Source: an uncultured bacterium
GTDB lineage: Bacteria > Fidelibacterota > Marinisomatia > SCGC-AAA003-L08 > D37C17
DNA length: 39,294 bases
Direction: 5' to 3'
Assembly: GCA_964646655.1 (NCBI GenBank)
Contig: CAZYFB010000002.1
Coordinates: 1 to 39,294, forward strand
Of the stretch, positions 8,705 to 35,330 are shown piece after piece (position 1 is the first letter of the stretch; each line of letters opens with the position of its first letter). Under the pieces are notes generated by a model. The model searched no databases, was not told the DNA's origin, and was given only the letters and a program-made list of their open reading frames with translations. Both the position numbers and the translations under genes were made by a program.

Positions 8705-8707
8705 ATT

Positions 8708-9211
8708 ATGAATTTGAGACAACAGTTTTTTTGGAAGTTATTAATTGGTTTATCATCATTTATGATTCTTTTGACAATTTATAATTCATATTCAAAATTT
8801 TCTGAATTTGTAGATTATAAAAAAGAGTATAAAAAAGAATCAGAAGTTAAAGATAACAAAAATATGGAAAGAAAAACTGATTTTATATCTGAAGAACAAA
8901 ATATTAGAATTCAATATAAACCTGATCTTGTAAGCCTTATTGAAAAAACTATAACAGGACATACTAGAGCGGGTATCAAAACAGATTCAAAAACAGATTG
9001 GGAATCTAATGATCCAATTTTTAGAGGTGTTACAAATAATAGGGCAATGATAGACTATAGAACATCTAAGGGTAGTTTTTATAAAAAAGGTCAAAATATT
9101 GAGGGGACTGATATGATAATCGAGTCTTATTCTAGAGATTCTGTTATAATTAAATACCCTACTGGTTTAAGAGTTTTTTATGTTGAAAGTTATCAAGAAT
9201 TTAAAAAATAA
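8708..9211 (+). CDS. PilP-like small anchored protein (assigned by position only)
   Basis: N-terminal TM/anchor LLIGLSSFMILLTIY, small beta-rich C-terminus, immediately upstream of the secretin. Confidence 0.35.
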   Translation: MNLRQQFFWKLLIGLSSFMILLTIYNSYSKFSEFVDYKKEYKKESEVKDNKNMERKTDFISEEQNIRIQYKPDLVSLIEKTITGHTRAGIKTDSKTDWESNDPIFRGVTNNRAMIDYRTSKGSFYKKGQNIEGTDMIIESYSRDSVIIKYPTGLRVFYVESYQEFKK

Positions 9212-9218
9212 TAAATAT

Positions 9219-13242: not shown

Positions 13243-13272
13243 GAAAAAGATTAATTAGGAGTAATAATAATC

Positions 13273-16223: not shown

Positions 16224-16229
16224 ATTAAT

Positions 16230-20000: not shown

Positions 20001-21018
20001 TGAATCTATTTTTAAGGGTTCAGTTTTTCCAATGCAGTTAAATTTTACAAATAGTGAAGATTACAATAGAATAGAAACATTAAATTTAACTGTTGGAGAG
20101 ATTGATAGGTTTTCACCTGTGGGTCCTGATCTTCATGGTTATTACATATATGATATGGGTGATACTAATTATAATCTATCTCCAACATTTGATTGGATTG
20201 AAATAGATACACAATATGGTGGAGATGGAATTGATCTAAATATGAGTGATTCTGGAAATGGTAATGGTGCAGCTAATAGCACTAAAGCAATTGACTTACC
20301 ATTCACTTTTAATTTTTATGGACAGCCATATGATGTTGTTTCAGTCAGTACAAATGGATGGATTGCACTTGGCAGAACTAATCTTTTATCCTTCAGAAAT
20401 TATCCAATTCCAGGAGCTGGTGGTCCATCTCCAATGATAGCTGCTTTCTGGGATGATATGAAAACTACAAATGGTGGAGATGTGTTTTATAAAATAGTTG
20501 ATAATGGAGTAAATAACCCATCTATTATCATTCAGTGGTCAGATATGAGAACATATGACAATTCATCTGAAGAAGACTTTCAAGTAATTTTAACCCCAAA
20601 TTCTGAATCTGAAACAGGAGACGGAGATATAAAAATTCAATACAAAACTTTTAATAATACTTCAGACGGCTATTATCCTGAGGGCGGTACCCCAACTCAT
20701 GGTAGTTATGCTACTATTGGAATTGAAAATATGTATGGCAATGAAGGTCTTCAATATACATTTAATAATGAATATGCACCTGGCGCATCACCATTATTTA
20801 ATAATCGAGCAATATTAATAACAACAGAATTACCTAAATTTGGATCATTAGGTGACATTAATGAGGATGAATTAGTTAATGTTTTGGATATTGTATTGCT
20901 AGTAAATTTAGTTTTATCAGGAACTTATAATGAAAATGCAGATATAAACTCAGATTCAATATTAAATGTTCTTGATATTGTTTCTTTAGTTAATATTATT
21001 TTAGAATCTGGGATTTAA
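17035..21018 (+). CDS. Gingipain-like (peptidase C25 family) multidomain secreted protein: propeptide-like N-domain, C25-like core, PA14 insert, Ig-like domains, NIDO-like 'FxFNFYG...STNGW' module, C-terminal dockerin-type repeats
   Basis: GGGAGA RBS and signal peptide. FTPYKYDIDEKRLEVYD (C25 propeptide-like). C25 core with the Cys motif ITCGTGDF. PA14 string YQIRWSTTLEAETAGTYSFRTYTDDGLRLFINDQMVIDNW...MEYYENGGGAVASLFW. Dockerin repeats GDINEDELVNVLDIVLLVNLVL / ADINSDSILNVLDIVSLVNIIL. Confidence 0.75.
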   Translation: MLFFTKLLIFTSLIFSSNIFNNSMFQIYKVDNKSTEILFNTPEISITKDIHGYLKFENSELVGLSDQNEEFSFPVFSSAFQMNPGFDYEIDFEVINSYFIENVNLKSLNDNSYDFLPQQNINLSEPQIMRGLVLGQISFTPYKYDIDEKRLEVYDAVQIIVTETNQINYDYFIPEKKSYVFDELYKNFVINFSTSDRSDDYQTPSILYICGGSSINNAYFQDLVNWRHKQGYIVTVVSTNETGSSENNINNYIANAYQNWENPPEIVGLVGDVGGSYNIDCDSYEWGGYYGASDVRYTYIEGDDLLPEVIIGRISANGTSDLYNLVNKTLEYEKAQEQTDLSWYDRAGLVGDPTTSGLSCAITNQYIDQVMEIHGFDDVDIDINGGGNQLNEFLIDQFNRGIMYYNYRGFYYGEGSYPPSSNDLNNGYYTPFVSTITCGTGDFNGTSSSEGFVRMGSVNDPKGAVAAVGTSTTGTHTAYNNIVNMGLYEGLFSNGISLAGSAVTNGRLALYKTYPSNPGDCVGAFAAWTNLIGDPALHLWTDEPRDFSIEYPSSIVLGTNYLDLTVLDSNGNPIKDARVTLLMKDNGESEDESNTFTGQYYSSPGTGGSPSFGDLVLTREDDVINFDWGNGSPDNSMPDDDYQIRWSTTLEAETAGTYSFRTYTDDGLRLFINDQMVIDNWIDQAPANRTGSIYLDEGTHDCVMEYYENGGGAVASLFWTPPGQAESLVHGDQDQDVIGDAIFLTKLTDSNGKIDFSWDEYQEGDLYLTVTKRNYRPLEGVIQVNSSDGYAIVPDYATLENYITDLNGNDDGSINPGETISFNIPISNFGDQNINSLDATLSSSSDYINLIDAESEYINLNTNEIGIGDGFIFQLSSDAVFGDDIELILNIEAVDNQWIFYIPININSPKINILDYVIISGEDEPGSSVVVSLNVVNDGNLPIENLNVNVISPTNQIQVIDENINFGNILNGQELSSNLIGDNITLNYSESIFKGSVFPMQLNFTNSEDYNRIETLNLTVGEIDRFSPVGPDLHGYYIYDMGDTNYNLSPTFDWIEIDTQYGGDGIDLNMSDSGNGNGAANSTKAIDLPFTFNFYGQPYDVVSVSTNGWIALGRTNLLSFRNYPIPGAGGPSPMIAAFWDDMKTTNGGDVFYKIVDNGVNNPSIIIQWSDMRTYDNSSEEDFQVILTPNSESETGDGDIKIQYKTFNNTSDGYYPEGGTPTHGSYATIGIENMYGNEGLQYTFNNEYAPGASPLFNNRAILITTELPKFGSLGDINEDELVNVLDIVLLVNLVLSGTYNENADINSDSILNVLDIVSLVNIILESGI
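18784..19248 (+). other. 155-codon insert (PA14 domain core about 18820..19203) present in paralog 1 and absent from paralog 2
   Basis: Paralog 1 reads ARVTLLM-[KDNGESEDES...PA14...HGDQDQDVI]-GDAIFLTKLTDSNGKIDFSW. Paralog 2 reads ARVTLLM-GDDIIFESNYTDSNGNVSFDW. Confidence 0.75.
20851..21015 (+). other. Dockerin type I-like duplicated Ca-binding repeat (C-terminus of C25-like paralog 1)
   Basis: DINEDELVNVLDIVLLVNLVL ... DINSDSILNVLDIVSLVNIIL (DxNxDxxxNxxD followed by a helix, twice). Confidence 0.65.
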
Positions 21019-21104: not shown

Positions 21105-24100
21105 ATGAAAGGTGTTTTAATGTTTAAAAATAAAATCATAATTTTATTCATACTAACTTTTACTTTAGGTTCTGAAAAATTATCTAAAATTAATAATTTT
21201 ACAATTTTAAATCATGAACAAGGTTTTACTTCAATTTTATTTGAAGCAAATGAAATAGAAATTAAATCTGAAGATGGAAAATCAAAATTTACTACAAATG
21301 ATTTAATAGGCTTAACAATGGAAGAAGGAAGGCCTCAGCTTCCTATTTATTCAACTCTATTTCAGGTTGATCCAAGTAAAAACTATGAATTCAATATTGA
21401 GATTTTAGAATCTTATACTATTGATAATATAGAATTTGAGAATTATAAAACAGATAGTGATATAAATTATACAGTTTATCCTGAGGAAAATTTATATGTA
21501 TCTGAAACACAAATTTGGCGAGATGTTGTATTAAATCAATTAGGTATTACTCCATACAAATATCATTCTGAATCAAAAAGTTTAGAAGTTTTCAAATCAA
21601 TAAAAATCAATATCAATGAAACTGGATTAAATAATAATCAATTTAATTTACCTTCAAAAAAATCAAGAGTATTTGAAGAATTTTATCAAACTGAAATTAT
21701 TAATTACCAACGTACTACAAGGTCTGAAGATTATCAAACACCTTCAATATTATATATTTGTGGTGGCTCATCATGTAATAATGGGTACTTTCAAGATTTA
21801 GTTGAATGGAGGCATAAGCAAGGTTATGAAGTTACTGTTGTTCCAACTTCTGAATCAGGTTCTAGTGAAAATGCTATTAATAATTTTATTAGTAATGCAT
21901 ACTATTTATGGGATAATCCTCCTGAAATTGTAGGTTTAGTTGGTGATGTAGGAGGATCATATAATATTGCTTGTGATTATTATGAGTGGGGTAGTGGATG
22001 GAATACTTATGAAGGTGCTAGTGACGTTAGGTATACTTATATAGATGGTGATGATTTTTTACCAGAGATTGTTATTGGAAGAATTTCAGCTGATAGTAGC
22101 AGTGATTTAAATAATATAATTAATAAAACTATTCAATATGAAAAAGCTACTTTACAAACAGATAGAGGGTGGTTTGATAGATCTGGTTTAATTGGTGATC
22201 CTACCCAATCTGGACTTTCATGTGCAATTACTAGCGAATGGATTAGAGAGCTTATGAATATTCATGGTCATAATGATGTTGATGCTGATTTGAATGGTGG
22301 TAGTGATAGTCAATTAGAAGATTATTTAGAAGATCAATTTAATCGAGGTATTATGTATTATAATTACAGAGGTATATATGGAAGTGGTGGTGCTTACATG
22401 CCAAGTAATGGTAATAATTTATCAAATGGATATTATACACCTTTTGCAACAGTCTTAACTTGTGGTACAGGTGATTTCAATTATGATGATGATAGCGAAG
22501 ATTTTATAAGAGTTGGATCATCAAGTAACCCAAAAGGTGCTGTTGGTTGCATTGGAATATCCACTACAGGAACACATACAGCATATAATAATATTTTAAA
22601 CATGGGTATTTATGAGGGTATTTATTCTAATGCAGTTTCATATGCTGGTAGTGCAACTACTAGTGGTAGATTAGCAATTTATAGAACTTATCCCTCAAAT
22701 CCAGGTGATTGCGTTGGTGCATTTAGTGCTTGGACAAATTTAATGGGAGATCCAGCATTACACTTATGGACTGATACACCAAAAGATTTCATTGTTGAGG
22801 GATTATCTACTCAAATGCAATTAGGGTCAAATCATTTGAATCTAACCATTTTAAATGAAGAAGGTGAATTAGTAGAAGATGCAAGGGTTACTCTTCTAAT
22901 GGGAGATGATATTATTTTTGAATCAAATTATACTGACAGCAATGGAAATGTATCTTTTGATTGGGATAATAATAATCAAACTGGCACTTTATTTGTAACA
23001 GTTACTAAGCAAAACTATAGACCTTCTGAAAATTCATTAAATATTGTTGGTGATTATGCAATTAATTATAGTATAAACGAATCATTAAATGCTAATTCAG
23101 GTTCAACTTTTAATTTACCTCAAATCTATTTACAGTCTATTGGTTCTGAATCAATTACTGAGATTACTGGAATATTGCAATCTTCTAGTGATCATATTAC
23201 AATTAATAATGCCGTCTCTAGTTGGGTGCTGTCTGGAGATAATGAATGGGCTCAAAATAATGAATATTTTAATGTATCATTGTCAGATGATGCAGTTTTT
23301 GGTGATGAAGTAAATTTTGTGTTAAATCTTTCAGATGGAAATAATCATAATTGGGAAATTTATTTACCATTAAGTATAAATTCTCCAAAAATTATTGTAA
23401 ATGATTTTTTAGCAACTGATTTTCCCGAACCAGGTCAAGCAACAGATGTATTTTTACAAGTTCAAAATGATGGTAATTTATTATCTTTAGGTACTACAGC
23501 AAGTATAATTTCAAATACAAATTTAATAAATATAGAAAATGATTTTGTTTCATTTGGTGATTTGGATGTTGGGCAAGTAGGAATAGCTGATATAACTCCT
23601 ACACTTATTTTTAGCCCAAACATTTTAAATGGTTCAGTTTTACCTATAGAAATTAAGTTTTCAGATCAAAATAATTATTCACGAAGTAATTTTGTTAATT
23701 TAACTGTAGGTACAGTTCAAAATACTGATCCACTAGGACCAAATGCTTATGGATATTATATCTATGATTCAGCTGATATTGAATATGAATTTGCTCCTAT
23801 TTATGAATGGATAGAAATTGATACAAATTATGGTGGCACTGGTCAAGATTTAAATTTAACAGATGGAGGTGATGGTAATAATGCTACAAATAGTACAGGT
23901 TATGTTCCTCTTCCATTTGATTTTAATTTTTATGGTGAAACATTTAGTGAGATTACTGTAAGCACTAATGGTTGGATTGTGCTTGGCAGGACAGACGTAT
24001 TATCATTTAGAAATTATCCTATTCCTGGTGCAGGAGGTCCTTCTCCAATGATTGCTGTTTTTTGGGATGATATGAAAACTAGTCAAGGTGGAGATGTATT

Positions 24101-24635
24101 TTATAAATCTTTCCCAGAAGGGTGTCAAGGTAATAGTTGTGAGTATCTTGTTGTTGAATGGTCTGATATGAGAACTCAAGATAACAATTCTGATGAAGAT
24201 TTCCAGATAATCTTATACAATGGTAATGATACTCCAACTGGTGATAGTGAATTTAAAATGCAGTATAAAACATTTAATAATACATCAAATGGTTATTATC
24301 CAGAAGGGGACAGACCTGATCATGGTTGCTATGTTACAATTGGTATAGAAAATAAATTTGGTAACGAAGGTTTGCAGTATACATTTAATAATGAATATCC
24401 ACCAGGTGCCACTAGACTAGCAGATGGTTCAGCTCTATTTGTGACGACACAATCACCATTTGTATTTTATGGAGATGTTAATAGTGATGATCTTTTAAAT
24501 GTATTAGATGTAGTTTTATTGCTTTCAATGATATTAGATCAGGTAGAGTCTGATTTTATTGGCGATATGAATCAGGATGGTGTTTTAAATATATTAGATG
24601 TTGTAATTCTTGTAAGTAATATTCTTGATAATTAA
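21105..24635 (+). CDS. Gingipain-like (C25 family) multidomain secreted protein; tandem paralog of 17035..21018 without the PA14 insert; C-terminal dockerin-type repeats
   Basis: Long collinear identity blocks with paralog 1 (DYQTPSILYICGGSS, WRHKQGY.VTVV, NPPEIVGLVGDVGGSYNI, YPSNPGDCVGAF.AWTNL.GDPALHLWTD, NYPIPGAGGPSPMIA.FWDDMKT). An alternative start ATG at 21120 is preceded by AGGTG. Confidence 0.75.
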   Translation: MKGVLMFKNKIIILFILTFTLGSEKLSKINNFTILNHEQGFTSILFEANEIEIKSEDGKSKFTTNDLIGLTMEEGRPQLPIYSTLFQVDPSKNYEFNIEILESYTIDNIEFENYKTDSDINYTVYPEENLYVSETQIWRDVVLNQLGITPYKYHSESKSLEVFKSIKININETGLNNNQFNLPSKKSRVFEEFYQTEIINYQRTTRSEDYQTPSILYICGGSSCNNGYFQDLVEWRHKQGYEVTVVPTSESGSSENAINNFISNAYYLWDNPPEIVGLVGDVGGSYNIACDYYEWGSGWNTYEGASDVRYTYIDGDDFLPEIVIGRISADSSSDLNNIINKTIQYEKATLQTDRGWFDRSGLIGDPTQSGLSCAITSEWIRELMNIHGHNDVDADLNGGSDSQLEDYLEDQFNRGIMYYNYRGIYGSGGAYMPSNGNNLSNGYYTPFATVLTCGTGDFNYDDDSEDFIRVGSSSNPKGAVGCIGISTTGTHTAYNNILNMGIYEGIYSNAVSYAGSATTSGRLAIYRTYPSNPGDCVGAFSAWTNLMGDPALHLWTDTPKDFIVEGLSTQMQLGSNHLNLTILNEEGELVEDARVTLLMGDDIIFESNYTDSNGNVSFDWDNNNQTGTLFVTVTKQNYRPSENSLNIVGDYAINYSINESLNANSGSTFNLPQIYLQSIGSESITEITGILQSSSDHITINNAVSSWVLSGDNEWAQNNEYFNVSLSDDAVFGDEVNFVLNLSDGNNHNWEIYLPLSINSPKIIVNDFLATDFPEPGQATDVFLQVQNDGNLLSLGTTASIISNTNLINIENDFVSFGDLDVGQVGIADITPTLIFSPNILNGSVLPIEIKFSDQNNYSRSNFVNLTVGTVQNTDPLGPNAYGYYIYDSADIEYEFAPIYEWIEIDTNYGGTGQDLNLTDGGDGNNATNSTGYVPLPFDFNFYGETFSEITVSTNGWIVLGRTDVLSFRNYPIPGAGGPSPMIAVFWDDMKTSQGGDVFYKSFPEGCQGNSCEYLVVEWSDMRTQDNNSDEDFQIILYNGNDTPTGDSEFKMQYKTFNNTSNGYYPEGDRPDHGCYVTIGIENKFGNEGLQYTFNNEYPPGATRLADGSALFVTTQSPFVFYGDVNSDDLLNVLDVVLLLSMILDQVESDFIGDMNQDGVLNILDVVILVSNILDN
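24471..24632 (+). other. Dockerin type I-like duplicated repeat (C-terminus of paralog 2)
   Basis: GDVNSDDLLNVLDVVLLLSMIL ... GDMNQDGVLNILDVVILVSNIL. Confidence 0.65.
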
Positions 24636-24668: not shown

Positions 24669-25832
24669 ATGGTACTAATTTTATCAATATTAGTGATAGT
24701 TATATTAGTTTTTGGCCTTATTGAATTTAAAATTCATAAAAACAGTTTATCTAAAATTCCAATTAGAATTCATGTTAATGGTTCTAGAGGCAAATCTAGT
24801 GTTGTTCGTTTAATTGCTGCAGGATTACGAGCAGGAGGAATTAAGGTTGTTGCCAAAACAACAGGAACATCTCCAAGAATAATTGATGAGTTTGGTAATG
24901 ATAAATATATTCATAGATTAAGATCAGCTTCCATTGGGGAGCAGATATCATTGATAAGACGATTTTCTAAAATAAAACCAGATGCATTAGTTATTGAATG
25001 TATGGCTGTTAACCCCCAATATCAATGGATTTCAGAGCATAAAATTGTAAAGTCAACCATTGGTGTTATGACAAATGTAAGGCCTGATCATCTAGATGAG
25101 ATGGGAATATCAATTAATCAAATAACAAAATCTATGGGTAATACTATACCATTTAATGGCACTTTAGTTACAGCTGAAGATAAGCAGGTTAATTTATTAG
25201 AGTCTATTTCTAAAAACAGAAAGTCTGAATTTTATTCAACTTCTGAAAATGATATTAAAAATGAGCATATATCAAATTTTGAGTATCTGGAGCATAAAGA
25301 AAATATTAGTTTAGCTATAAAGGTTTGTGAGTTATGTGGTATTAGTAAAGATCTTGCATTAAAAGAAATGAGTAAATGTACACCAGACCCTGGAGCATTG
25401 ACTATGTGGAAAATTCAATATAAAAGCAATAGTTTTGAATTTATTAATGCTTTTGCTGCTAATGATCCAGCTTCTACACTAAAAACATGGGAATTAATTA
25501 ATGATAGACTAAATAGGGAAAAATTTGCTATTTTTTTAAATACTAGATTAGATAGGCAGTATAGAACTGTTCAATTGATTGATTTAATTTTTAAAAAATT
25601 AAGACCTGAAGTACTAGTATTAAGAGGTGAAAATTTTCCTTCTGAGCTAAATGATCTATCTTCTAAAAATAAAAATATTAAAATTTATAAATTTCCCTAT
25701 TCTATTAAACAGTTAGATTTGATTAAATTCTTTGATGAATCATTATCTGATTTTGTAGTTTTAGGAATTGGTAACATTGTAGGGTGGGGTGAAATATTAA
25801 TGAAAAAAATGAAGGAATATAAAGTTGATTGA
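24669..25832 (+). CDS. pgsB: Poly-gamma-glutamate synthetase, ATP-dependent amide ligase subunit PgsB/CapB (Mur-ligase-like)
   Basis: N-terminal TM followed by the P-loop HVNGSRGKSSVVRLIAAGL. Further matches ...KTTGTSPRII..., ECMAVNPQYQW and VMTNVRPDHLDEMG. About 390 aa, followed by a pgsC-like gene. Confidence 0.8.
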   Translation: MVLILSILVIVILVFGLIEFKIHKNSLSKIPIRIHVNGSRGKSSVVRLIAAGLRAGGIKVVAKTTGTSPRIIDEFGNDKYIHRLRSASIGEQISLIRRFSKIKPDALVIECMAVNPQYQWISEHKIVKSTIGVMTNVRPDHLDEMGISINQITKSMGNTIPFNGTLVTAEDKQVNLLESISKNRKSEFYSTSENDIKNEHISNFEYLEHKENISLAIKVCELCGISKDLALKEMSKCTPDPGALTMWKIQYKSNSFEFINAFAANDPASTLKTWELINDRLNREKFAIFLNTRLDRQYRTVQLIDLIFKKLRPEVLVLRGENFPSELNDLSSKNKNIKIYKFPYSIKQLDLIKFFDESLSDFVVLGIGNIVGWGEILMKKMKEYKVD

Positions 25833-26295
25833 AAACGCACAATTTATAGGGATAGCAATAGGAATTGGTATGTGCCTAAGTTTGTTTTTGACTGAAACTT
25901 TAGGAGTTACAGCTGGTGGTGTAATTGTTCCAGGATATATTGCTCTTTACTTGCATGAGCCTTTTAAAATTGTTATCACATTTTCAATAGCAATCTTAGT
26001 TGTAATTATAATAAAAATTCTATCAAATTTTATATTTGTATACGGTAAAAGAAGGTTAGTGCTTAGCTTAATGTTAGGTTTTATATTTGGTTATATTTCA
26101 AAAATATACTTTAATCCAGAAATTTATACCTTTATGAGTTATGATATTTCATCTATTGGTAATATCATCCCCGGATTAATTGCAAGTTGGATGGATAGGC
26201 AGGGTGTATCAAAAACAATTAGTGTAATCCTTATAATTGCAATTTCAACTAGACTTATTATGATTATTATTAGCGGAGGTACTTTTTATGTTTAG
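25825..26295 (+). CDS. pgsC: Poly-gamma-glutamate synthetase membrane subunit PgsC/CapC
   Basis: About 150 aa, four TM segments. LTETLGVTAGGVIVPGYIALYL matches the PgsC N-terminal signature (..AEKTGIVPAGLVVPGYLGLVF in Bacillus). The TTG start overlaps the pgsB stop by 8 nt. Confidence 0.75.
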   Translation: MIENAQFIGIAIGIGMCLSLFLTETLGVTAGGVIVPGYIALYLHEPFKIVITFSIAILVVIIIKILSNFIFVYGKRRLVLSLMLGFIFGYISKIYFNPEIYTFMSYDISSIGNIIPGLIASWMDRQGVSKTISVILIIAISTRLIMIIISGGTFYV

Positions 26296-27658
26296 ACCTT
26301 CAATCCAAAAAACTAGAGTTTTAGTTATTTTAGCCTTGATTAATATTTTGATTTATTACTTTGTATCTACTTCAGTCGTTACTTTTAAATCAGTAGATTA
26401 TGAATTAAAAATAGATTCAGCTAAAAAAATGGAAAATGCACTTACTATTTTAAAAAAATATGGTAGAAAATACCCGTTTTTATCAAGAGACCCATTTGAT
26501 ACGCGATTAGTTTTTTTAAATACTGAAACTAGTCCTTTATTAACAGATATTGGTAAGTATGAAGCTAAATCAACCGTATTAAAACCTAATTTTTCAGCGC
26601 TGATTATTGATCATTTTTCTAGGGCAGGACTATCTAAAGGTGATACAATTGCTATTTCTATGACAGGTTCTATGCCTGGTGCTAATATTGCGGTTTTGAT
26701 GGCTTGTGAGGCTATGGAATTAGAATATGTGTCTATTTCTTCTCTTGGAGCATCTAGTTGGGGAGCTACAGATATGAATTTGTCTTGGCCAAAAATGGAA
26801 AAAATTCTATTTGATAACCAAATTATAGGAAAGGTAAGTGATAAATTTACATATGGTGGTGGAGCTGACTATTTAAAAAAAGGAACTAGGTATAGAAAAA
26901 TATATGGTGGTGATTTTAAAAGATTAAGGATTGACAGTTTAATGGTATCTCTATATCCAAATAAATCTATGGATGATTTATTTATATTGCATGGTCTATC
27001 AAAGGATAAAGTATTAAATGATTCTACAGGAATGATACTTAAAACAAGCATTAACCAAAGAATATCTTTTTATGAAAAGTCTTGTTCTGATGGTACATTG
27101 TCTTGCTTTGATGCTTACGTTAATGTTGGAGGGGGCGTTGCTAGCTTCGGGTACAAAGGAAAAAATAAACTTAAAGATAATTATGGATATGTTCAGGTAA
27201 AAGATGTTTTAGATGCACTTCCTTCTTTTGAAAAAAGAAATAGTGTTATGATAAAATTTGGAGAATCAAATATCCCACTTATTAATATTACTGAAATTGA
27301 AAAATTAATTAAGGGGTCAGATATAGGGTATTTTAATAGTTTTGTTATTGATGAACTCGATCAAGTTGGAAATGGAAAATGGGATAGAGATGGATTCAAA
27401 TGGAGTCAGAATTTAAGTGGTTCTCCAGAAATGTTTACGGATATAAACGAAAATGGAATATGGGATGATGGTGAAGAATTTACAGATCAAGATGGTCTTG
27501 TAGACATTGGAAAAGGTAACTTATATAACACACAGAAGTTTAACATGTTGATAGTATGGTTTGGTTTAATGATATGTTTAGGAAGTACTATATATATTGG
27601 ATTTATTAGTTATCAGCAAATTAGTAGACAAATGAGAAGTTATGATCCAAACAGTTAA
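26288..27658 (+). CDS. Bitopic (N- and C-terminal TM) periplasm-facing protein occupying the slot where PgsA/CapA normally sits; not CapA-like; possibly the 'poly-gamma-glutamate system protein' type
   Basis: The ATG overlaps the pgsC stop by 8 nt. TMs are VLVILALINILIYYFVSTSVV and LIVWFGLMICLGSTIYIGFISY. No CapA metallophosphatase motifs (GD.M.GR, NHA.D, GHH.H). An acidic NGxWDxGEEFxD segment lies near the C-terminus. Confidence 0.4.
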   Translation: MFRPSIQKTRVLVILALINILIYYFVSTSVVTFKSVDYELKIDSAKKMENALTILKKYGRKYPFLSRDPFDTRLVFLNTETSPLLTDIGKYEAKSTVLKPNFSALIIDHFSRAGLSKGDTIAISMTGSMPGANIAVLMACEAMELEYVSISSLGASSWGATDMNLSWPKMEKILFDNQIIGKVSDKFTYGGGADYLKKGTRYRKIYGGDFKRLRIDSLMVSLYPNKSMDDLFILHGLSKDKVLNDSTGMILKTSINQRISFYEKSCSDGTLSCFDAYVNVGGGVASFGYKGKNKLKDNYGYVQVKDVLDALPSFEKRNSVMIKFGESNIPLINITEIEKLIKGSDIGYFNSFVIDELDQVGNGKWDRDGFKWSQNLSGSPEMFTDINENGIWDDGEEFTDQDGLVDIGKGNLYNTQKFNMLIVWFGLMICLGSTIYIGFISYQQISRQMRSYDPNS

Positions 27659-28691
27659 TCTTGTTTTTATCCTTTTATTAACCATAACTTTTTCTAAAGA
27701 TATTCCAATTTCTTATAAGTACGAGCTTTCATTTGGATATGATGATAATTTTATGCGATTTTCAGATAATGAGCTAAATACCTTTCATAACACTGATGAA
27801 TCCAATAATGACTATCTTGGAGACTCAAAAACATATGATTCTGGTATAGTAGGCTCATCTTTACAGATTAAATTATCCCCCAAAATTAAAAATAAAATAA
27901 AATCTAATATAATTACTAAAATTAAGTACAATTATTATAGTAGTTCAAATCAAAAATCATATGGTTCTTTTTTATTTAGATATGAATTAAAATTAGCATC
28001 TTATAGATGGTTAAAGTTTTCGTACTCACTTCTACCGGATTATTATTTAAGAACATATATTGATAGAGATTTAACTCCTCTTGAAAGATTTCCATGTACA
28101 TTTTCAAATGAAACTATTTATTTATCCTACTCACATCAGTTTTTATTTAATAAAACCTGGATTGACTATCGTTTAGTATTAAATAACCAGTTTTATAATA
28201 AATATTTTACAGAGTTTGATAGTAAAATTTCAGGTTTAGAGGTTACTATTAAATCAAAGAAAGTTAAAAATTATTATGCTTCACTTGCGTTTTTATATTA
28301 CAAAGCTGAAAATATTTCATACAACCCTACAGAGATGTTAGAATCTTCAAAGATGGATCGTTCTTATCTAAGAAATGGAATAAAGATACACCTTAAAAGA
28401 ACTCTTAAAAAATCGTTTATTAATAGTTTGGGTTTAAAATTTTATTTTAATCAAAGATTTTATGATTTAAACTCGTGGTCTTATAATCAAGATAATTGGA
28501 AAACTTATTCTGATTTTGATATAAGATTTGAAATGTCTAAAAAACTATCATCAAATACTAGTTTGGATTTTTTATTTAGACATTTTAATAGATCTGTTGA
28601 TTCTTCTGATAGCAGTGAGATTGAATGGGTAGAAGATTATAAAAATCACAACAGAAATGAAATGTGGTTAAAATTTGTTTATATTTTTTAA
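27642..28691 (+). CDS. Predicted outer-membrane beta-barrel protein, translationally coupled to the pgs module
   Basis: Signal peptide MIQTVNLVFILLLTITFSKD. Alternating amphipathic strands (SLAFLYYKAE, GLKFYFNQRFY, DIRFEMSKKL, SLDFLFRHFN). C-terminal MWLKFVYIF ends in Phe (OMP beta-signal). The start overlaps the upstream gene by 17 nt. Confidence 0.55.
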   Translation: MIQTVNLVFILLLTITFSKDIPISYKYELSFGYDDNFMRFSDNELNTFHNTDESNNDYLGDSKTYDSGIVGSSLQIKLSPKIKNKIKSNIITKIKYNYYSSSNQKSYGSFLFRYELKLASYRWLKFSYSLLPDYYLRTYIDRDLTPLERFPCTFSNETIYLSYSHQFLFNKTWIDYRLVLNNQFYNKYFTEFDSKISGLEVTIKSKKVKNYYASLAFLYYKAENISYNPTEMLESSKMDRSYLRNGIKIHLKRTLKKSFINSLGLKFYFNQRFYDLNSWSYNQDNWKTYSDFDIRFEMSKKLSSNTSLDFLFRHFNRSVDSSDSSEIEWVEDYKNHNRNEMWLKFVYIF

Positions 28692-28709
28692 ATTTAGACT
28701 GAGGTAATT

Positions 28710-29951
28710 ATGAAAATTTACATATTATTAATATCTTTATTCTTTTTTGCATGTATTGAACAGGTTGATTCAGAACAAAACAATATTGCTCAATTGGTCA
28801 AATATATAGATACATATGGAGAAGCTATGGATTTAGATTTGACAGACACTCATATGGTGGTTGCTGCTAATTATCAAGGGTTCATTGTTTATGATATAAT
28901 TAGAGATAATTTAGGTAATGTTTCAGATCTTGATTCAGTTTTTAATGATTCAATTTTAGATGATTCTATGGGAGACAATCGAGCACAAGAGGTTGTTATA
29001 TCTAAAAATCATAACATTGCATTTATTACTGATATATATGATAGAATATGGTTATACAAGCTTGATGGAGGATCTAATCAATACGTAGATTCCTACCTGC
29101 AGGATTGTTATGGAGGAACTTGGTTAAGTACTACCATTGATGAACAGACTGATATGAATCAAATTAATGTATTCTCTCTAGTAAAACATTCTTCATCTGA
29201 GAGTGATGACGAAGGTACTGTTGGGGATTTTGATGAGTATTCTACATCTGTTGTATGGAAAGGTTTAATAGATATTAATTCAGGTGATTTATTTCCAGAA
29301 CAAAATTCAGCACCTGCATGTGAATTTTCTTATAATTTTGGTATTTTACCTGAAACAATACACTATAATAATGGTTTATTGGCTATAAGTAATGGTGAAT
29401 TAGGCATGAAAGTTTTATCACAAATAAATCAATCTTCATGCTTTGATAGTGACTCTTTTGATTTAATTGAAGATTTTAATCCATCAGGTAATATTGATAT
29501 AGATAGAATTGCTTGTGAAAATTCTATATTTGATTATTATAATCCAGGTTTTGGAGGAATTTTTGAGCCCAAAGGAGGATTTCATCCTCAAGTTTATTCA
29601 TCTTTTGATTTACCTGGAGAGGTTAATGCTGTTTATGTTAAGGATTTAGTTTTATTTTCAGGTTTATCAACTAGTAATGGTTGTTACATATCTTTACTAG
29701 GGGATAATGGGAATATATTAGAAAATTTATCAGTTGCTAATGGATACACTATCAATGGTATTAGTGAAGATAATGGTATTTTGGCGCTATCAGCAGGTAG
29801 AGATGGTGTTTTACTTTATCAATGGAATGGAGATTTGAACATTAGTTATATGGGTCAAATTGAAACGCCATATTCAAATAAAGTAAAAGTTGATGGAAAT
29901 AATATTCTAATTTCAACTGAAGATGGTGTTTATATATATATTTTAAATTAA
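28710..29951 (+). CDS. Secreted/possibly lipidated beta-propeller-like protein with LVIVD-like repeats
   Basis: GAGGT RBS. Signal ending in Cys: KIYILLISLFFFAC. Repeating strings THMVVAANYQGFIVYDI, HNIAFITDIYDRIWLYKL, NGLLAISNGELGMKVL, NGILALSAGRDGVLLYQW and NNILISTEDGVYIYIL. Confidence 0.4.
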   Translation: MKIYILLISLFFFACIEQVDSEQNNIAQLVKYIDTYGEAMDLDLTDTHMVVAANYQGFIVYDIIRDNLGNVSDLDSVFNDSILDDSMGDNRAQEVVISKNHNIAFITDIYDRIWLYKLDGGSNQYVDSYLQDCYGGTWLSTTIDEQTDMNQINVFSLVKHSSSESDDEGTVGDFDEYSTSVVWKGLIDINSGDLFPEQNSAPACEFSYNFGILPETIHYNNGLLAISNGELGMKVLSQINQSSCFDSDSFDLIEDFNPSGNIDIDRIACENSIFDYYNPGFGGIFEPKGGFHPQVYSSFDLPGEVNAVYVKDLVLFSGLSTSNGCYISLLGDNGNILENLSVANGYTINGISEDNGILALSAGRDGVLLYQWNGDLNISYMGQIETPYSNKVKVDGNNILISTEDGVYIYILN

Positions 29952-32900: not shown

Positions 32901-33086
32901 GAAAAAGTATCAATTAATATTTACGATTTAAATGGAAAGTTAATTGAAAAAATTTATGATAATCAGTTAAATAGTGGCAGTCATACATTTAGCTGGAATG
33001 CTCAAAAATTTTCTAGTGGTATTTATATTATAAGTCTTGAGTCTGATAATTCAGTTATAAGTTCTAAAGTATCTTTAATGAAATGA
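29952..33086 (+). CDS. Large secreted repeat (propeller-like) protein with about 14-16 'WxDxR...D(I/V)YxQ' units and a T9SS C-terminal sorting domain
   Basis: Repeat examples are listed in the findings. CTD: IYPNPFNPEVNINFYN...ISIYDLNGKLIEKI...SGIYIISLESDNSVISSKVSLMK. An alternative start ATG at 29964 is preceded by GGGAG. The gene ends in TGA (33084..33086). Confidence 0.7.
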   Translation: MGVIMVSRLIFIILLLNTVFSQFDWIDGGAPIRQGQHIEWQRTAGSGDTGEIIFAWSDTRDSMRDVYVQKIDTQGNKLWGEKGIAVTTAYGRQEDPLLVGDDNGGAFIIWIDYRNEPDTKGDVYAQHVLSDGSLVWSLEGQPIVVKEGSQRNPNMCKDGNGGAYIIWKDFTVGQYEHVYATHISADDQIIKPGEGVPIMTNDSHHNGISLEIAGLGEAAMAWVDDRNGNLDIFGQRMLADHENDTINTLWSTVEEGGKAICDAEGDQNYAKITYASGCCGTEGITVATWQDDRNQNFDIYMQYLWVNGDSFFQSYPQGLPLTDGLTSSQTKPRLKADDSGAYVVWYSDQNGNSDIYAQKILASQDDPIQWSENGLAVCTAQDAQTGARLSVSGNGGVYFTWQDDRNGGDEADVYIQHVSSDNILTLPDNGLVISDESLIQKSPVVRNDGNGNAFVLWEDGRRGSGAIFTQHLNSNGLLTLSENGMEIYYGVDGKSDNIKSEKINDTDVLLYWEDRENGVNSTYNFGKIISNDYGYTYENAISVPNASLSENPAQLNAEVKKVGNNLFMGFLQDNFQAGVDPFEGYSQYFQILDLPDLNLAGDVNGTWLNPTDFFQYDFISEFGRDLDLLVNDDNTLFYFTSLSEFFAGPDIYVRKVGIDGQIYWDAPKNLTNDPASDNFVRNVFNTPDGGAFVVFDKIGSGNYGNITIMNQEGENLEGFPKRVCDIDSNQFIEDAVDVGIGIFIIWRDNRQDGGSDIYGQLFDYSGNPQGATDGIAIAEYDNDQTNSNITFHDTLNEVLVCWEDYLSGTDYDLACSTVNLSNLEVNNSLGFPTYTIAEGQGDQINVDTYKAENGNYMIVWEDSRNNSDENLQTHTDIYYQEINIQGEFIYNDNGIAVCDSYHIQTEPQISMYSKSDSEQSYIIYWTDLRSTGKDLLYNIYAQSISHDYQLSIEDSFPVELSLNSIYPNPFNPEVNINFYNPRSEKVSINIYDLNGKLIEKIYDNQLNSGSHTFSWNAQKFSSGIYIISLESDNSVISSKVSLMK
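32830..33083 (+). other. T9SS (Por) C-terminal sorting domain
   Basis: YPNPFNP ... IYDLNG ... SGIYII motif set typical of TIGR04183-type CTDs. Confidence 0.7.
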
Positions 33087-35329
33087 TAATTTTAATTTTA
33101 CTTATTATAACCTCATTTGTTTTACCTTTATCAGAAAGATATCATACATTTTATGAAGTTGAGCAGCAACTTTTAGATTGGGATGAGCAATTTTCTAATG
33201 ATGATAATCCTTGGCCTGCACAGTACCCTGGTAGTGGTATCATTTATCAGTTATCACAAATTGGTGTATCTTCTCATGACAATTTACCTATATATGCAGT
33301 AAAATTATCTTATAATGCCAATGAAGATAACGATGAGGCGAGGGTTTTAATTTTAGGGCAATGCCATGCAGAAGAAATCTATGGTGTAGAGATTGCTATG
33401 GAAATGATTGATTGGTTACTTCATCCAAATGCATTTTATCCAGTTAATTATTTAGATAGAAAAATGGCATTAGAAAATACAGAGTTATGGATTATTCCAA
33501 CGCATAATCCGGAAGGTTTACTTACAGTTCATGGTGACACATTAAATGGAGAATGGATTCAAGATGAATGGTATAGAAAAAATAAAACAGATATTAATGC
33601 TAATGGTATCTTTGATTATGTTTATGGTCCTGGAAATGATTCAGATGGTGTTGATTTAAATAGGAATTATGATTTTAATTGGATATTCGGTGATGATAAG
33701 TATGAATTAGATTATGGCTGCGCTGGTAATCCATCATATATATCAAATTATGACTATTATAGAGGAGAAGAACCCTTTTCTGAGCTAGAAATTCAAGCTA
33801 TTAGAGATTTTGCTATAGAAAAGCAATTCTTATTATCTATAGCATATCATAGTTCTAGATCAGGTTGCGTTTCTGAAAAGGTAATATATCCATGGAAATG
33901 GACAGAAACCAAAGAGAGTCCAGATTTTGAGGTGATTGATAAGCTGGGTAGAGATATAGCTTCATTTATACCAACTCAAGATGGCATTACTACATATTTG
34001 CCATCAGGTAGTGTATCAAGAAGAGGTAATGCACATGATTGGTTTTATAGTCAAACTGGTTGTATTCAGTATTTAATAGAAGCTGGAACCTCAAATATTC
34101 AAACCAATGATGATCAAATTATAGAGGATACAATTGATAGAAATTTAATTGGTGCATTTCATTTAATAAATAGAGCATCTGGAAATAATTTTGGTGAAAT
34201 AGGTGCAGATAAATACCTTATAAATGGTTTAGTTATGGATTCTAATTCAAGTGAAATATTAAATGCAGAAGTTACTATATTAGAGATGGATGGGCCTATG
34301 TTAAAACCTAGAACTACTGATCAGTATGGCAGATATAGAAGATTGCTTTATCCTGGAACATTTACTTTGCAAGTTAAATCAAAAGGATATCAAACATATT
34401 TAGAATCAGATATTGTTCCAAGTGCATCTTCATTTATAGAAAAAGATATTTACTTAGAGTCATTACAAAGTCATGTAGTTGAATTTAATTTTGATTATCC
34501 TGATTATTATAACAATACAACCCCATTAATATTAACTTTAGAAAGTGAATGGGATGTAGAAGAGTTTGAAATATTTTCAAATAATTTTGAGTTAGATTTA
34601 TATGAGGGTTCTTATAATATTTCTATTGAAGGAAAAGAATCCAACCATATTGTACCTATTTTAGATAATTTTATTGTTACTGATAATGTAGAAAAAAATT
34701 ATTCCTTAGGATGGGCAAAGTTAATTTATTTAGGAATAAATTCTAATGATTGGATTATCGAATCAGGAGATTGGTATTTTAATAATGATTTATTTTCTCA
34801 GTCTTCATCATATTACAGTAGTGATTTTTTTGGAAGTATGTTTTTAGATTCATCTTTTACTGCTAGCAAGATTGTTGCTTCATTTGATATGAAATACGAA
34901 TACGAGTGGGATAATGATTATATTCAGCTTTCAATTTCTAGTGATAATGCTGATATTTCTAATGTTAAAACATTAACTGGTCACAATTACAAATCATTTC
35001 AGAAAGAAATGGTTGCTTATTCAAATAGTCAGGAGTTAAATGATTTATTGGTTAGTATTTCAATGAACACAGATGAATCATTATACTATAGAGGAAGTGT
35101 TATTAAAGATTTAAAAATAGTATCAGACTCAGGTAATCAAGCTTGTAATTTTGGAGATTCAAATTTTGATGGGCTAATTAACATTAATGATATTATGATA
35201 ATATTAAACTTCATTCTTCAAACTGATATAGCTGAGGGTTATTATAAGTGTGTTAGCGATTTGAATCAAGATAGTGGAATTAATATTTTAGATATTTCAA
35301 TTATGATAAACTTTATTTTAGGGGATTAA
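33083..35329 (+). CDS. M14-family zinc carboxypeptidase with CarboxypepD_reg-like beta-sandwich and C-terminal dockerin-type repeats
   Basis: Zn motif GQCHAEEIYG (HxxE at 33365..33376), IPTHNPEG, VDLNRNYDFNW, and SIAYHSSRSG (third Zn ligand context). LINGLVMDSNSSEILNAEVTIL...TTDQYGRYRRLLYPGTFTLQVKSKGYQ. Dockerin GDSNFDGLININDIMIILNFIL / SDLNQDSGINILDISIMINFIL. The ATGA start overlaps the upstream stop. Confidence 0.8.
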   Translation: MIILILLIITSFVLPLSERYHTFYEVEQQLLDWDEQFSNDDNPWPAQYPGSGIIYQLSQIGVSSHDNLPIYAVKLSYNANEDNDEARVLILGQCHAEEIYGVEIAMEMIDWLLHPNAFYPVNYLDRKMALENTELWIIPTHNPEGLLTVHGDTLNGEWIQDEWYRKNKTDINANGIFDYVYGPGNDSDGVDLNRNYDFNWIFGDDKYELDYGCAGNPSYISNYDYYRGEEPFSELEIQAIRDFAIEKQFLLSIAYHSSRSGCVSEKVIYPWKWTETKESPDFEVIDKLGRDIASFIPTQDGITTYLPSGSVSRRGNAHDWFYSQTGCIQYLIEAGTSNIQTNDDQIIEDTIDRNLIGAFHLINRASGNNFGEIGADKYLINGLVMDSNSSEILNAEVTILEMDGPMLKPRTTDQYGRYRRLLYPGTFTLQVKSKGYQTYLESDIVPSASSFIEKDIYLESLQSHVVEFNFDYPDYYNNTTPLILTLESEWDVEEFEIFSNNFELDLYEGSYNISIEGKESNHIVPILDNFIVTDNVEKNYSLGWAKLIYLGINSNDWIIESGDWYFNNDLFSQSSSYYSSDFFGSMFLDSSFTASKIVASFDMKYEYEWDNDYIQLSISSDNADISNVKTLTGHNYKSFQKEMVAYSNSQELNDLLVSISMNTDESLYYRGSVIKDLKIVSDSGNQACNFGDSNFDGLININDIMIILNFILQTDIAEGYYKCVSDLNQDSGINILDISIMINFILGD
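35153..35326 (+). other. Dockerin type I-like duplicated repeat (C-terminus of the M14 peptidase)
   Basis: DSNFDGLININDIMIILNFIL ... DLNQDSGINILDISIMINFIL. Confidence 0.6.
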
Positions 35330-35330
35330 T

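What the first reader, a model, noticed from the sequence alone, without database searches (positions are those of the whole stretch)
24669..28691. CapA-less poly-gamma-glutamate module: pgsB-pgsC translationally coupled to an orphan bitopic protein and an outer-membrane barrel (candidate diderm PGA synthesis/export system)
The PgsB (P-loop NGSRGKSS) and PgsC (GGVIVPGYIALY) assignments are clear. The characterised Bacillus system needs PgsA/CapA (and PgsE), and neither is present here. Instead, three successive start/stop overlaps (8, 8 and 17 nt) chain pgsB and pgsC to two more genes. The first is a 456-aa protein with TMs at both ends and a large non-cytoplasmic domain lacking the CapA metallophosphatase motifs. 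The second is a 349-aa signal-peptide protein with amphipathic strands and a C-terminal Phe, a typical OMP beta-signal. This four-gene arrangement looks like an envelope-spanning synthase, periplasmic adaptor and OM-channel set for a gamma-polyglutamate polymer in a two-membrane cell. From memory, a TIGRFAMs family named 'poly-gamma-glutamate system protein' accompanies pgsBC in some non-Bacillus genomes. I cannot verify membership from sequence alone, and I know of no characterised OM export component.
Basis: partly seen in the sequence, partly recalled or inferred. Interest (0 to 1): 0.7.

Follow-up and report, generated by a model that had tools for sequence, protein, structure and literature searches.

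The report
Two-membrane polyglutamate synthesis and export operon
A marine SAR406 (Marinimicrobia) bacterium carries a conserved operon joining the two core poly-gamma-glutamate synthesis genes to a known alternative third subunit, an undescribed outer-membrane channel and a lipoprotein, which gives a testable candidate for how two-membrane bacteria get this polymer out of the cell.

Summary
The four ORFs, their 8/8/17-nt overlaps, the PgsB P-loop and the PgsC motif are all present.

1. The 456-aa bitopic protein is not an orphan. It belongs to NCBIfam TIGR04332, "poly-gamma-glutamate system protein" (189 bits, cutoff 100). Francisella "CapA" carries the same name.
2. The unit is larger than four genes. 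A lipoprotein with beta-propeller signals (28710-29951) belongs to it. Most relatives also carry a sixth periplasmic gene ("ext") between sys and the barrel, which this lineage has lost.
3. The tight gene spacing is a property of the whole window. The real evidence is comparative.

The 349-aa protein models confidently as a 14-stranded barrel (pTM 0.80). It is closest to the channels CymA and OmpG, its inferred lumen is net positive, and it matches no Pfam, NCBIfam or PDB sequence.

Its family follows pgsB-pgsC-sys in 61 of 65 genome loci. Starting from the barrel, 27 of 27 testable metagenome loci carry sys and pgsC. The same arrangement occurs in Ignavibacteria, Bacteroidota and Nitrospirota.

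The best reading is an envelope-spanning synthase-plus-exporter for a gamma-glutamyl polymer. Neither the product nor export has been demonstrated. I rate it a new variant of a known kind.

The parts
24669..25832 (+). pgsB: membrane-anchored ATP-dependent gamma-glutamyl amide ligase (Mur-ligase superfamily)
   Evidence: TIGR04012 equivalog at 392 bits against a cutoff of 223, covering the full length. Pfam Mur_ligase_M. The sequence shows the P-loop NGSRGKSS and an N-terminal hydrophobic anchor.
25825..26295 (+). pgsC: small polytopic inner-membrane subunit of the synthase
   Evidence: TIGR04011 at 124 bits against a cutoff of 96. Pfam Caps_synth_CapC at 9.5e-33. It overlaps pgsB by 8 nt, and gene calls in relatives show the same overlap.
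26288..27658 (+). sys: TIGR04332 'poly-gamma-glutamate system protein'. Bitopic inner-membrane protein (TM helices at about residues 9-28 and 420-451) with a large alpha/beta domain, inferred to be periplasmic. It stands in place of PgsA/CapA.
   Evidence: TIGR04332 at 189 bits against a cutoff of 100. AF2 model pTM 0.72 with terminal helices and an alpha/beta core. No structural or sequence match in the PDB. Invariant MTGSMPGAN motif. K/R residues lie before TM1 and after TM2, which suggests an N-in/C-in topology (read from the sequence; inference).
27642..28691 (+). omp: 14-stranded outer-membrane beta-barrel from an undescribed family. Candidate outer-membrane conduit.
   Evidence: AF2 pLDDT 82 and pTM 0.80, with 14 long strands. 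Foldseek best matches are CymA and OmpG at TM 0.53-0.64. No hit in Pfam, NCBIfam or PDB sequences. Lumen-facing strand positions carry 23.5 K/R against 11.4 D/E, with R137, R272, K287 and R317 conserved. The family follows pgsBC-sys in 61 of 65 genome loci and is never found without them in 27 of 27 testable metagenome loci. It is also present in Ignavibacteria, Bacteroidota and Nitrospirota.
28710..29951 (+). lipo5: lipoprotein with beta-propeller (LVIVD/WD40-like) signals.
   Evidence: A lipobox Cys is conserved across the family. Some members hit Pfam LVIVD (3.5e-8), and there are weak WD40 hits to Pfam and the PDB. It follows omp in 55 of 62 genome loci and 42 of 42 metagenome loci. It is also present in Ignavibacteria and Bacteroidota.
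21105..24635 (+). C25 (gingipain-family) peptidase-like protein directly upstream. A looser, frequent neighbour, not part of the core.
   Evidence: Pfam Peptidase_C25 at 5.5e-44. A C25 ORF ends within 600 bp upstream of pgsB in 51 of 69 loci, and also in an Ignavibacteria locus. It is absent in the Bacteroidota and Nitrospirota loci.
33083..35329 (+). M14 zinc carboxypeptidase with a dockerin domain. A looser downstream neighbour, and a speculative polymer-trimming enzyme.
   Evidence: Pfam Peptidase_M14 at 2.3e-34 and Dockerin_1 at 5.4e-8. An M14 lies within 8 kb downstream in 39 of 57 loci. It is not present in the Ignavibacteria, Bacteroidota or Nitrospirota loci.

Best explanation
Genes 24669-29951 form one conserved module that makes a gamma-linked glutamate polymer at the inner membrane and carries it across a two-membrane envelope.

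Proposed steps:
1. PgsB, an ATP-dependent amide ligase with its catalytic domain in the cytoplasm, works with the membrane subunit PgsC to polymerise glutamate and pass the chain through the inner membrane. This is inferred from equivalog-level homology to the Bacillus enzymes.
2. The TIGR04332 protein replaces PgsA/CapA. It is anchored by a helix at each end, and its alpha/beta domain (inferred periplasmic) receives or guides the nascent chain. This is inference.
3. The 14-stranded barrel, whose lumen is lined with conserved Arg and Lys, lets the polyanion through the outer membrane. It is assisted by, or docked to, the lipoprotein encoded by the next gene. This is inferred from the predicted fold, the charge pattern and strict gene linkage.

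Most relatives have an extra periplasmic protein (ext) between sys and the barrel. This lineage lacks it, and its sys protein is longer, with Asp/Asn-rich inserts. In overall logic the system works like the synthase-dependent exopolysaccharide secretion systems (Pga, Alg, Bcs), applied to a polyamide.
For: - Family assignments are above the curated cutoffs.
- PgsBC alone is sufficient for PGA production in B. subtilis, so the third subunit can be exchanged (PMC6029982).
- The barrel model is confident and resembles a channel.
- The inferred lumen is about +12 net, with four basic positions conserved across a family as divergent as 17-33% identity.
- Forward linkage: omp is present in 61 of 65 genome loci, the lipoprotein in 55 of 62, and ext in 65 of 70.
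- Reverse linkage from omp: 40 of 40, 27 of 27 and 42 of 42 testable loci.
- The most distant detectable barrel relatives are in the same context.
- The same gene order occurs in Ignavibacteria, Bacteroidota and Nitrospirota, with HMM E-values from 1e-22 to 1e-41 for ext, omp and the lipoprotein.
- Barrels in those phyla end in F or W.
- The barrel family is small: 249 representatives among 1.84 billion proteins. Every member whose neighbourhood I could examine lies next to these genes.
Against: - No polymer has been detected for any TIGR04332-type system that I could find. In Francisella the capBCA product is unknown, and the locus is not needed for the O-antigen capsule (PMC4688374).
- The closest structural matches, CymA and OmpG, are uptake channels, and the TM-scores are only 0.53-0.64.
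- The lumen-charge estimate comes from strand alternation, not from coordinates.
- The sys fold has no solved relative, so its role is a guess.
- No TPR-type periplasmic scaffold was found.
- A WOR-3 locus has pgsC-sys-pgsB without a detectable barrel, and a few Marinimicrobia loci lack the barrel or the lipoprotein.
- The loci sampled are mostly from one phylum. Only single loci were examined from each of the other phyla.
Confidence: 0.6

Rival explanations
1. The module is real, but the barrel and lipoprotein do not export the polymer. Instead they anchor, process or display it at the outer membrane. This would be a functional counterpart of CapD or PgdS, or a docking site for the dockerin-bearing C25 and M14 peptidases encoded nearby.
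For: The most conserved part of the barrel is a 35-residue segment between strands 1 and 2 that is rich in invariant D, N, R and S residues. That could be a catalytic or binding site. C25 and M14 peptidases are frequent neighbours, in 51 of 69 and 39 of 57 loci. Several of them carry dockerin domains.
Against: The Foldseek matches are channels, not enzyme barrels. The C25 and M14 neighbours are missing in the Bacteroidota and Nitrospirota loci, which still keep the barrel. A polymer made at the inner membrane would still need some route through the outer membrane.
Confidence: 0.15
2. The product is not a free PGA capsule or slime. PgsBC-sys may instead make a short or carrier-linked gamma-glutamyl compound, or modify an envelope component, as may be the case in Francisella. 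The barrel and lipoprotein would then handle that product.
For: Francisella capBCA is required for virulence, yet no PGA has been attributed to it and capB/capC are dispensable for the capsule (PMC4688374). TIGR04332 is a different protein from PgsA, with an unrelated and unsolved fold.
Against: PgsB and PgsC score as equivalogs of the Bacillus enzymes. PgsBC alone make high-molecular-weight PGA. F. nucleatum, a diderm, does make PGA (Candela 2009, as cited in PMC3815933), although I could not check which type of third subunit it has.
Confidence: 0.15
3. The barrel is an uptake channel that supplies substrate (glutamate or peptides) to the synthase. Or the barrel and lipoprotein are unrelated neighbours kept by phylogenetic inertia.
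For: The nearest folds, CymA and OmpG, are nutrient-uptake channels. The genome is tightly packed and co-directional, so adjacency in this window means little by itself.
Against: Gene order is retained across four phyla, with protein identities down to about 20-30%. The barrel was never seen away from pgsBC-sys, in 27 of 27 testable loci. Chance or inertia does not explain that. Biosynthetic operons seldom encode a dedicated uptake porin. Glutamate is small enough for general porins.
Confidence: 0.07

Closest known systems
Bacillus PgsBCA(E) / CapBCA(E) poly-gamma-glutamate synthase
   Same: PgsB and PgsC are equivalog-level homologues. They have the same gene order (B then C), the same overlapping starts, and a third membrane protein encoded immediately downstream.
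   Different: There is no PgsA/CapA (PGA_cap) domain. The third protein is TIGR04332, which has an unrelated fold. The host has two membranes. Two or three further envelope genes (ext, omp, lipoprotein) are attached. No CapD or PgdS homologue was identified.
Francisella tularensis capBCA locus
   Same: It is a diderm locus with capB, capC and a third gene whose product is annotated 'poly-gamma-glutamate system protein', the TIGR04332 name (PMC5362203).
   Different: The papers I read describe the Francisella locus as three genes. I could not inspect its flanks, so I do not know whether an omp, ext or lipoprotein homologue is present. Its product is also unknown. I did not align the Francisella protein with the window protein; the link rests on the annotation name.
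Synthase-dependent exopolysaccharide secretion systems (PgaABCD for PNAG, Alg8/44-AlgK-AlgE for alginate, BcsABC for cellulose)
   Same: The architecture is the same: an inner-membrane polymerase, a periplasm-spanning partner, an outer-membrane beta-barrel, and an outer-membrane lipoprotein. The electropositive pore would parallel AlgE for the polyanion alginate (from established knowledge). PgaA appears among the fold matches at rank 38.
   Different: None of the components is homologous. The polymer is a polyamide, not a polysaccharide. The barrel has 14 strands, against 16-18 in those systems. No TPR scaffold was found. This is a functional analogy only.
CymA (Klebsiella oxytoca) and OmpG (E. 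coli) 14-stranded monomeric channels
   Same: These are the best structural matches (E 1.7e-9, TM 0.53-0.64), with the same strand number.
   Different: Sequence identity is only 7-10%. They are uptake channels for cyclodextrins and oligosaccharides. There is no profile-level sequence match, and the genomic context differs.

Membership tests
PgsB (TIGR04012) | Full-length HMM match above the curated equivalog cutoff | tested here: met
   392.1 bits against a cutoff of 222.7. Residues 3-380 match profile positions 1-379 of 380.
PgsB (TIGR04012) | Mur-ligase-type ATP-binding P-loop and central domain | tested here: met
   The sequence shows NGSRGKSS. Pfam Mur_ligase_M at 1.6e-10.
PgsB (TIGR04012) | ATP-dependent gamma-glutamyl polymerising activity | not testable with these tools
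   This needs an enzyme assay or detection of the polymer.
PgsC (TIGR04011 / PF14102) | HMM match above cutoff, and a gene adjacent to pgsB | tested here: met
   124 bits against a cutoff of 96.45. PF14102 at 9.5e-33. The gene overlaps pgsB by 8 nt.
TIGR04332 poly-gamma-glutamate system protein | HMM match above the curated cutoff | tested here: met
   188.9 bits against a cutoff of 100, in two stretches because of lineage-specific inserts. Relatives carry this name in NCBI and JGI annotation.
TIGR04332 poly-gamma-glutamate system protein | Encoded next to pgsB/pgsC in genomes or loci without PgsA/CapA | tested here: met
   The gene lies immediately downstream of pgsC. 75 of 78 genome loci with sys have pgsC adjacent. 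No PGA_cap hit in any scanned ORF of the window.
Bacillus-type PgsBCA(E) complex | PgsA/CapA subunit (Pfam PGA_cap, metallophosphatase-like) | tested here: not met
   The 456-aa protein and every other scanned ORF of the window lack a PGA_cap hit. The sys model has no significant PDB fold match at all.
Bacillus-type PgsBCA(E) complex | PgsE/CapE small peptide (about 50 aa) | not tested
   ORFs shorter than 80-100 aa were not examined.
Outer-membrane beta-barrel protein (general) | Signal peptide, even-numbered antiparallel amphipathic strands closing a barrel, and an aromatic C-terminal residue | tested here: met
   Hydrophobic N-terminus. 14 strands, pTM 0.80. Lipid-facing positions are hydrophobic and uncharged. 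The C-terminus is F here, and F or W in other phyla, although some close relatives have 2-5 residues after the Phe.
CymA/OmpG-type 14-stranded channels | Detectable sequence or profile homology | tested here: not met
   The profile search of PDB sequences finds nothing relevant. Identity in the structural alignments is 7-10%. The resemblance is in fold only.
Synthase-dependent exopolymer secretion systems (Pga/Alg/Bcs) | Outer-membrane barrel plus lipoprotein encoded in the same operon as the inner-membrane polymerase | tested here: met
   Gene order pgsB-pgsC-sys-(ext)-omp-lipoprotein is conserved across phyla.
Synthase-dependent exopolymer secretion systems (Pga/Alg/Bcs) | Homologous components (GT2 synthase, TPR scaffold, PgaA/AlgE/BcsC barrel) | tested here: not met
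   No Pfam hits to these families. This is analogy, not membership.
Synthase-dependent exopolymer secretion systems (Pga/Alg/Bcs) | Polymer actually translocated through the barrel | not testable with these tools
   This needs genetics, electrophysiology or structural work.

The most novel reading that the evidence does not exclude
ext, omp and the lipoprotein, together with TIGR04332, form a previously unrecognised and widespread outer-envelope export apparatus for a polyamide. It would be a new class of synthase-dependent secretion system built from unrelated parts. It would be present in Marinimicrobia, Ignavibacteria, Bacteroidota and Nitrospirota. It would make SAR406, one of the most abundant deep-ocean lineages, a producer of extracellular poly-gamma-glutamate. 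The adjacent dockerin-bearing C25 and M14 peptidases might be organised on, or might act on, that polymer.
Probability: 0.4. Interest if true: 0.8.

Novelty: new variant of a known kind. Interest (0 to 1): 0.66.

Why it matters
How poly-gamma-glutamate, or whatever the Francisella capBCA virulence locus makes, crosses the outer membrane of two-membrane bacteria is unknown. No outer-membrane component appears in the literature I could search.

This locus names specific candidate proteins: a 14-stranded cationic barrel, a lipoprotein with beta-propeller signals, and in most lineages a periplasmic "ext" protein. They are strictly linked to pgsBC-TIGR04332 across several phyla. That turns the question into direct experiments: heterologous expression, knockouts, and channel recordings with oligo-gamma-Glu.

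It also predicts that abundant uncultured marine Marinimicrobia release or wear an anionic, metal-binding polyamide. This would bear on marine dissolved organic nitrogen, D/L-glutamate pools and particle aggregation.

Finally, three protein families currently lack any Pfam or NCBIfam model. With this context they could be annotated.

Tried and rejected
- **Lipid A deacylase or another enzyme barrel, for the 349-aa protein.** Rejected. The Foldseek hits are channels and porins.
- **CapA-like fold for the 456-aa protein.** Rejected. There is no PGA_cap hit and no significant PDB fold match, with best E 0.025 and TM below 0.2.
- **The sys inserts in this clade as a fused copy of the lost ext gene.** No support. 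The ext HMM does not hit the long sys proteins, and BLASTP gives E 1.8.
- **Promoter and terminator scan to define operon ends.** Uninformative. Counts equal the shuffled expectation.
- **Translational coupling as evidence of a unit.** Down-weighted, because the whole window is co-directional and tightly packed.
- **Failed or limited steps.**
I repeated it with a narrower alignment.
  - Su et al. 2011 on Francisella capBCA is not held in the library.
- **Literature searches** for Marinimicrobia with PGA, for TIGR04332, and for outer-membrane PGA export found no prior description. The library is incomplete, so this is not proof of absence.
- **A Gemmatimonadota sys-like gene (L076)** is not next to pgsBC, so I did not use it as evidence either way.

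Full report
**Observation**

The four ORFs are exactly where the finding places them: 24669-25832 (387 aa), 25825-26295 (156 aa), 26288-27658 (456 aa) and 27642-28691 (349 aa). The overlaps are 8, 8 and 17 nt. NCBIfam identifies the first three far above the curated cutoffs: PgsB TIGR04012 at 392 bits (cutoff 223), PgsC TIGR04011 at 124 bits (cutoff 96), and TIGR04332 "poly-gamma-glutamate system protein" at 189 bits (cutoff 100). Pfam adds Mur_ligase_M and Caps_synth_CapC. No scanned ORF of the window has a CapA/PGA_cap domain. A Francisella paper lists capA as a "poly-gamma-glutamate system protein", the name of this family (PMC5362203). I did not align the two proteins.

One caveat applies to the observation. 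28 of the 30 ORFs of at least 100 aa in the window are on the + strand and tightly packed, and GC skew is positive throughout. The promoter and terminator scans are at chance level. Overlapping starts are therefore not specific evidence for a four-gene unit.

**Source organism**

Close relatives of these proteins come from marine metagenomes and from genomes labelled Candidatus Neomarinimicrobiota, also known as Marinimicrobia or SAR406. T9SS sorting tails on neighbouring genes fit an FCB-group diderm.

**The 349-aa protein (omp)**

- It has no Pfam, NCBIfam or PDB-sequence match, whether searched alone or as a family profile.
- An AF2 model built on 35 homologues is confident (pLDDT 82, pTM 0.80) and has 14 long strands.
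- Foldseek against the PDB returns the 14-stranded monomeric channels CymA and OmpG first (E 1.7e-9, TM 0.53-0.64). General porins follow, and the PNAG exporter PgaA is at rank 38. No lipid A deacylase-type barrel appears.
- I assigned strand positions to the lipid or lumen side from the hydrophobicity alternation. The lumen-facing set carries about 23.5 K/R against 11.4 D/E. Arg137, Arg272, Lys287 and Arg317 are conserved across a family that falls to 17-33% identity. The lipid-facing set is nearly uncharged. This is what a polyanion conduit would need. It is an estimate without coordinates, and ordinary porins are also charged inside.
- The most conserved segment lies between strands 1 and 2 (residues 32-67, GYDDNFMRFS...DYLGDSKTYDS). 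It contains a short helix and has lower pLDDT. I infer that it is a loop folded into the barrel.

**The 456-aa protein (sys)**

The model (pTM 0.72) shows one long helix at each end and an alpha/beta core around an invariant MTGSMPGAN motif. Low-confidence Asp/Asn/Gly-rich inserts are present. Basic residues flank the cytoplasmic sides of both helices, which suggests an N-in/C-in topology with the large domain in the periplasm. This is inference from the sequence. It has no significant structural or sequence relative in the PDB, so its mechanism cannot be read from a known fold.

**Extent of the unit**

- The gene 18 nt downstream (28710-29951) encodes a protein with a conserved lipobox cysteine. 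Its family gives LVIVD and WD40-like beta-propeller signals.
- In more distant Marinimicrobia, the barrel and this lipoprotein are again present (27-29% identity to the window barrel, E 1e-28 to 1e-32). An additional signal-peptide protein of about 290 aa ("ext") lies between sys and the barrel.
- The window's clade lacks ext and has a longer sys of 456-632 aa. The ext HMM does not match those long sys proteins.

**Linkage statistics**

I built HMMs by iteration on the fetched loci.

| Direction | Feature tested | Result |
|---|---|---|
| Forward, 80 genome loci found with sys | Barrel present, at least 2.5 kb downstream available | 61 of 65 |
| Forward | Lipoprotein present, at least 4 kb downstream available | 55 of 62 |
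| Forward | ext present | 65 of 70 |
| Reverse, 80 metagenome loci found with the barrel | pgs, sys or ext genes upstream | 40 of 40 testable |
| Reverse | Both sys and pgsC, at least 3.5 kb upstream available | 27 of 27 |
| Reverse | Lipoprotein downstream | 42 of 42 |

Forward counts are, and reverse counts. An exhaustive profile search finds only 249 representatives of the barrel family among 1.84 billion proteins. The three weakest members whose contigs I could look up are in the same context.

**Beyond Marinimicrobia**

TIGR04332 proteins are named in Nitrospirota, Methylomirabilia, Bacteroidota, Ignavibacteria and Sphingobacteriia. The neighbourhoods I retrieved are as follows (HMM E-values).

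| Phylum (locus) | Gene order | HMM E-values |
|---|---|---|
| Ignavibacteria (L095) | C25, pgsB, pgsC, sys, ext, omp, LVIVD lipoprotein | ext 4e-41, omp 1e-37, lipoprotein 7e-26 |
| Bacteroidota (L096) | pgsB, pgsC, sys, ext, omp, lipoprotein | ext 6e-35, omp 5e-37, lipoprotein 2e-28 |
| Nitrospirota (L094) | pgsB, pgsC, sys, ext, omp (no lipoprotein) | ext 3e-22, omp 2e-22 |
| Methylomirabilia (L097) | pgsB, pgsC, sys, ext, then the contig ends | ext 9e-24 |

The Nitrospirota barrel also gives a weak Pfam OMP_b-brl hit.

There are exceptions. A WOR-3 locus has pgsC-sys-pgsB and a propeller protein but no clear barrel. A Gemmatimonadota sys-like gene is not next to pgsBC at all. Only one locus per outside phylum was examined.

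**Mechanism**

In B. subtilis, PgsBC alone produce 26 g/L of PGA, and PgsA changes the D/L ratio (PMC6029982). The catalytic core is therefore B+C, and the third subunit is accessory. F. nucleatum shows that a diderm can make PGA (Candela 2009, as cited in PMC3815933). In Francisella, capBCA is needed for virulence but its product is unknown (PMC4688374).

The best-supported reading, at about 0.6 confidence, is an envelope-spanning system with four steps:
1. PgsBC polymerise and translocate the chain at the inner membrane (by homology).
2. The sys domain handles the chain in the periplasm (inference).
3. The cationic 14-stranded barrel passes it through the outer membrane (inferred from fold, charge and linkage).
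4. The lipoprotein partners the barrel (inferred from linkage).

This works like the Pga, Alg and Bcs synthase-dependent secretion systems but shares no homologous parts with them.

The rivals are that the barrel and lipoprotein anchor or process the polymer instead of exporting it, that the product is a non-PGA gamma-glutamyl compound, that the barrel is an uptake channel, or that the genes are merely neighbours. The last is hard to reconcile with the cross-phylum and reverse-direction linkage.

**Looser neighbours**

C25 (gingipain-family) genes lie directly upstream in 51 of 69 loci, and M14 carboxypeptidases lie downstream in 39 of 57. Several of these proteins carry dockerin domains or T9SS tails. 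They are absent from the Bacteroidota and Nitrospirota loci, so I do not count them as core.

**Novelty**

PGA synthesis genes, TIGR04332 and diderm cap loci are all known. The outer-membrane barrel, its lipoprotein partner and ext have no family models, and the held literature does not mention them. I rate the finding a new variant of a known kind, with moderately high interest. It makes the question of how a polyamide crosses an outer membrane directly testable, and it predicts PGA production by abundant marine SAR406.

Noticed in passing
window 1958-16982: A roughly 15-kb type IV pilus / T2SS-like cluster: N_methyl pilins, a PilT-like ATPase, PilM, a secretin at 9180-10703, GspE/PilB, GspF/PilC and a prepilin peptidase. 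It lies between the SpoU methylase (1037-1786) and the C25 genes. In relatives L001-L004, SpoU is followed directly by C25, so this is an insertion/deletion difference between close lineages. Two large ORFs inside the cluster (4470-6449 and 10678-13242) have no Pfam hit.
   Followed up: partly
window 17035-21018, 21105-24635, 33083-35329: Dockerin type I domains sit at the C-termini of two C25 peptidase-like proteins (one of the hits is weak) and of an M14 carboxypeptidase, in a marine non-cellulolytic lineage. No cohesin partner was seen in the window. The C25 proteins also give Nidogen-like (NIDO) and PA14 hits.
   Followed up: no
window 27320-27525 (sys residues ~345-412): An Asp/Asn/Gly-rich repeat insert (for example DINENGIWDDGEEFTDQDG) resembles calcium-binding loops. 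Its copy number varies between close relatives, and P0112 has extra copies. pLDDT is low in the model. In the loci examined, the insert occurs only in the clade that lacks the ext gene.
   Followed up: partly
L007 6448-7323; L009 9149-9595; 76 loci in all: The 'ext' family is a signal-peptide protein of about 290 aa (about 148-178 aa in some lineages) with no Pfam hit. It is encoded between sys and omp in most lineages, including Ignavibacteria, Bacteroidota, Nitrospirota and Methylomirabilia, but is missing from the window's clade.
   Followed up: partly
window 21105-24635 and 33083-37913; loci L011-L090: Secreted peptidase genes are recurrent neighbours of the pgs module. A C25 gene lies immediately upstream in 51 of 69 loci, and also in Ignavibacteria locus L095. 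An M14 lies within 8 kb downstream in 39 of 57 loci, and a C25 within 10 kb downstream in 48 of 57. It is unknown whether these enzymes act on, or are organised by, the polymer.
   Followed up: partly
L076 1331-5227: A Gemmatimonadota sys-like gene (33% identity over residues 5-363) is not preceded by pgsB/pgsC. It is followed by an ABC substrate-binding protein and a methyl-accepting chemotaxis protein. The sys fold may therefore be used outside PGA systems.
   Followed up: partly
L086 9543-14846: A WOR-3 locus has a rearranged order: pgsC, sys, a 587-aa protein with only weak ext/omp similarity, pgsB, then an SGL/NHL/BamB-like propeller protein. No clear member of the barrel family is present.
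   Followed up: partly
window 1-39294: 28 of the 30 ORFs of at least 100 aa are on the + strand. GC skew is positive in every 1-kb bin, and G+C is only 23-38%. This is a strongly strand-biased, compact genome segment.
   Followed up: no
window 27735-27842 (omp residues 32-67): The most conserved stretch of the barrel family is not a strand. It is the segment between strands 1 and 2 (GYDDNFMRFS...DYLGDSKTYDS), which contains a short helix and has lower model confidence. It may be an in-barrel constriction or a binding or catalytic loop.
   Followed up: no
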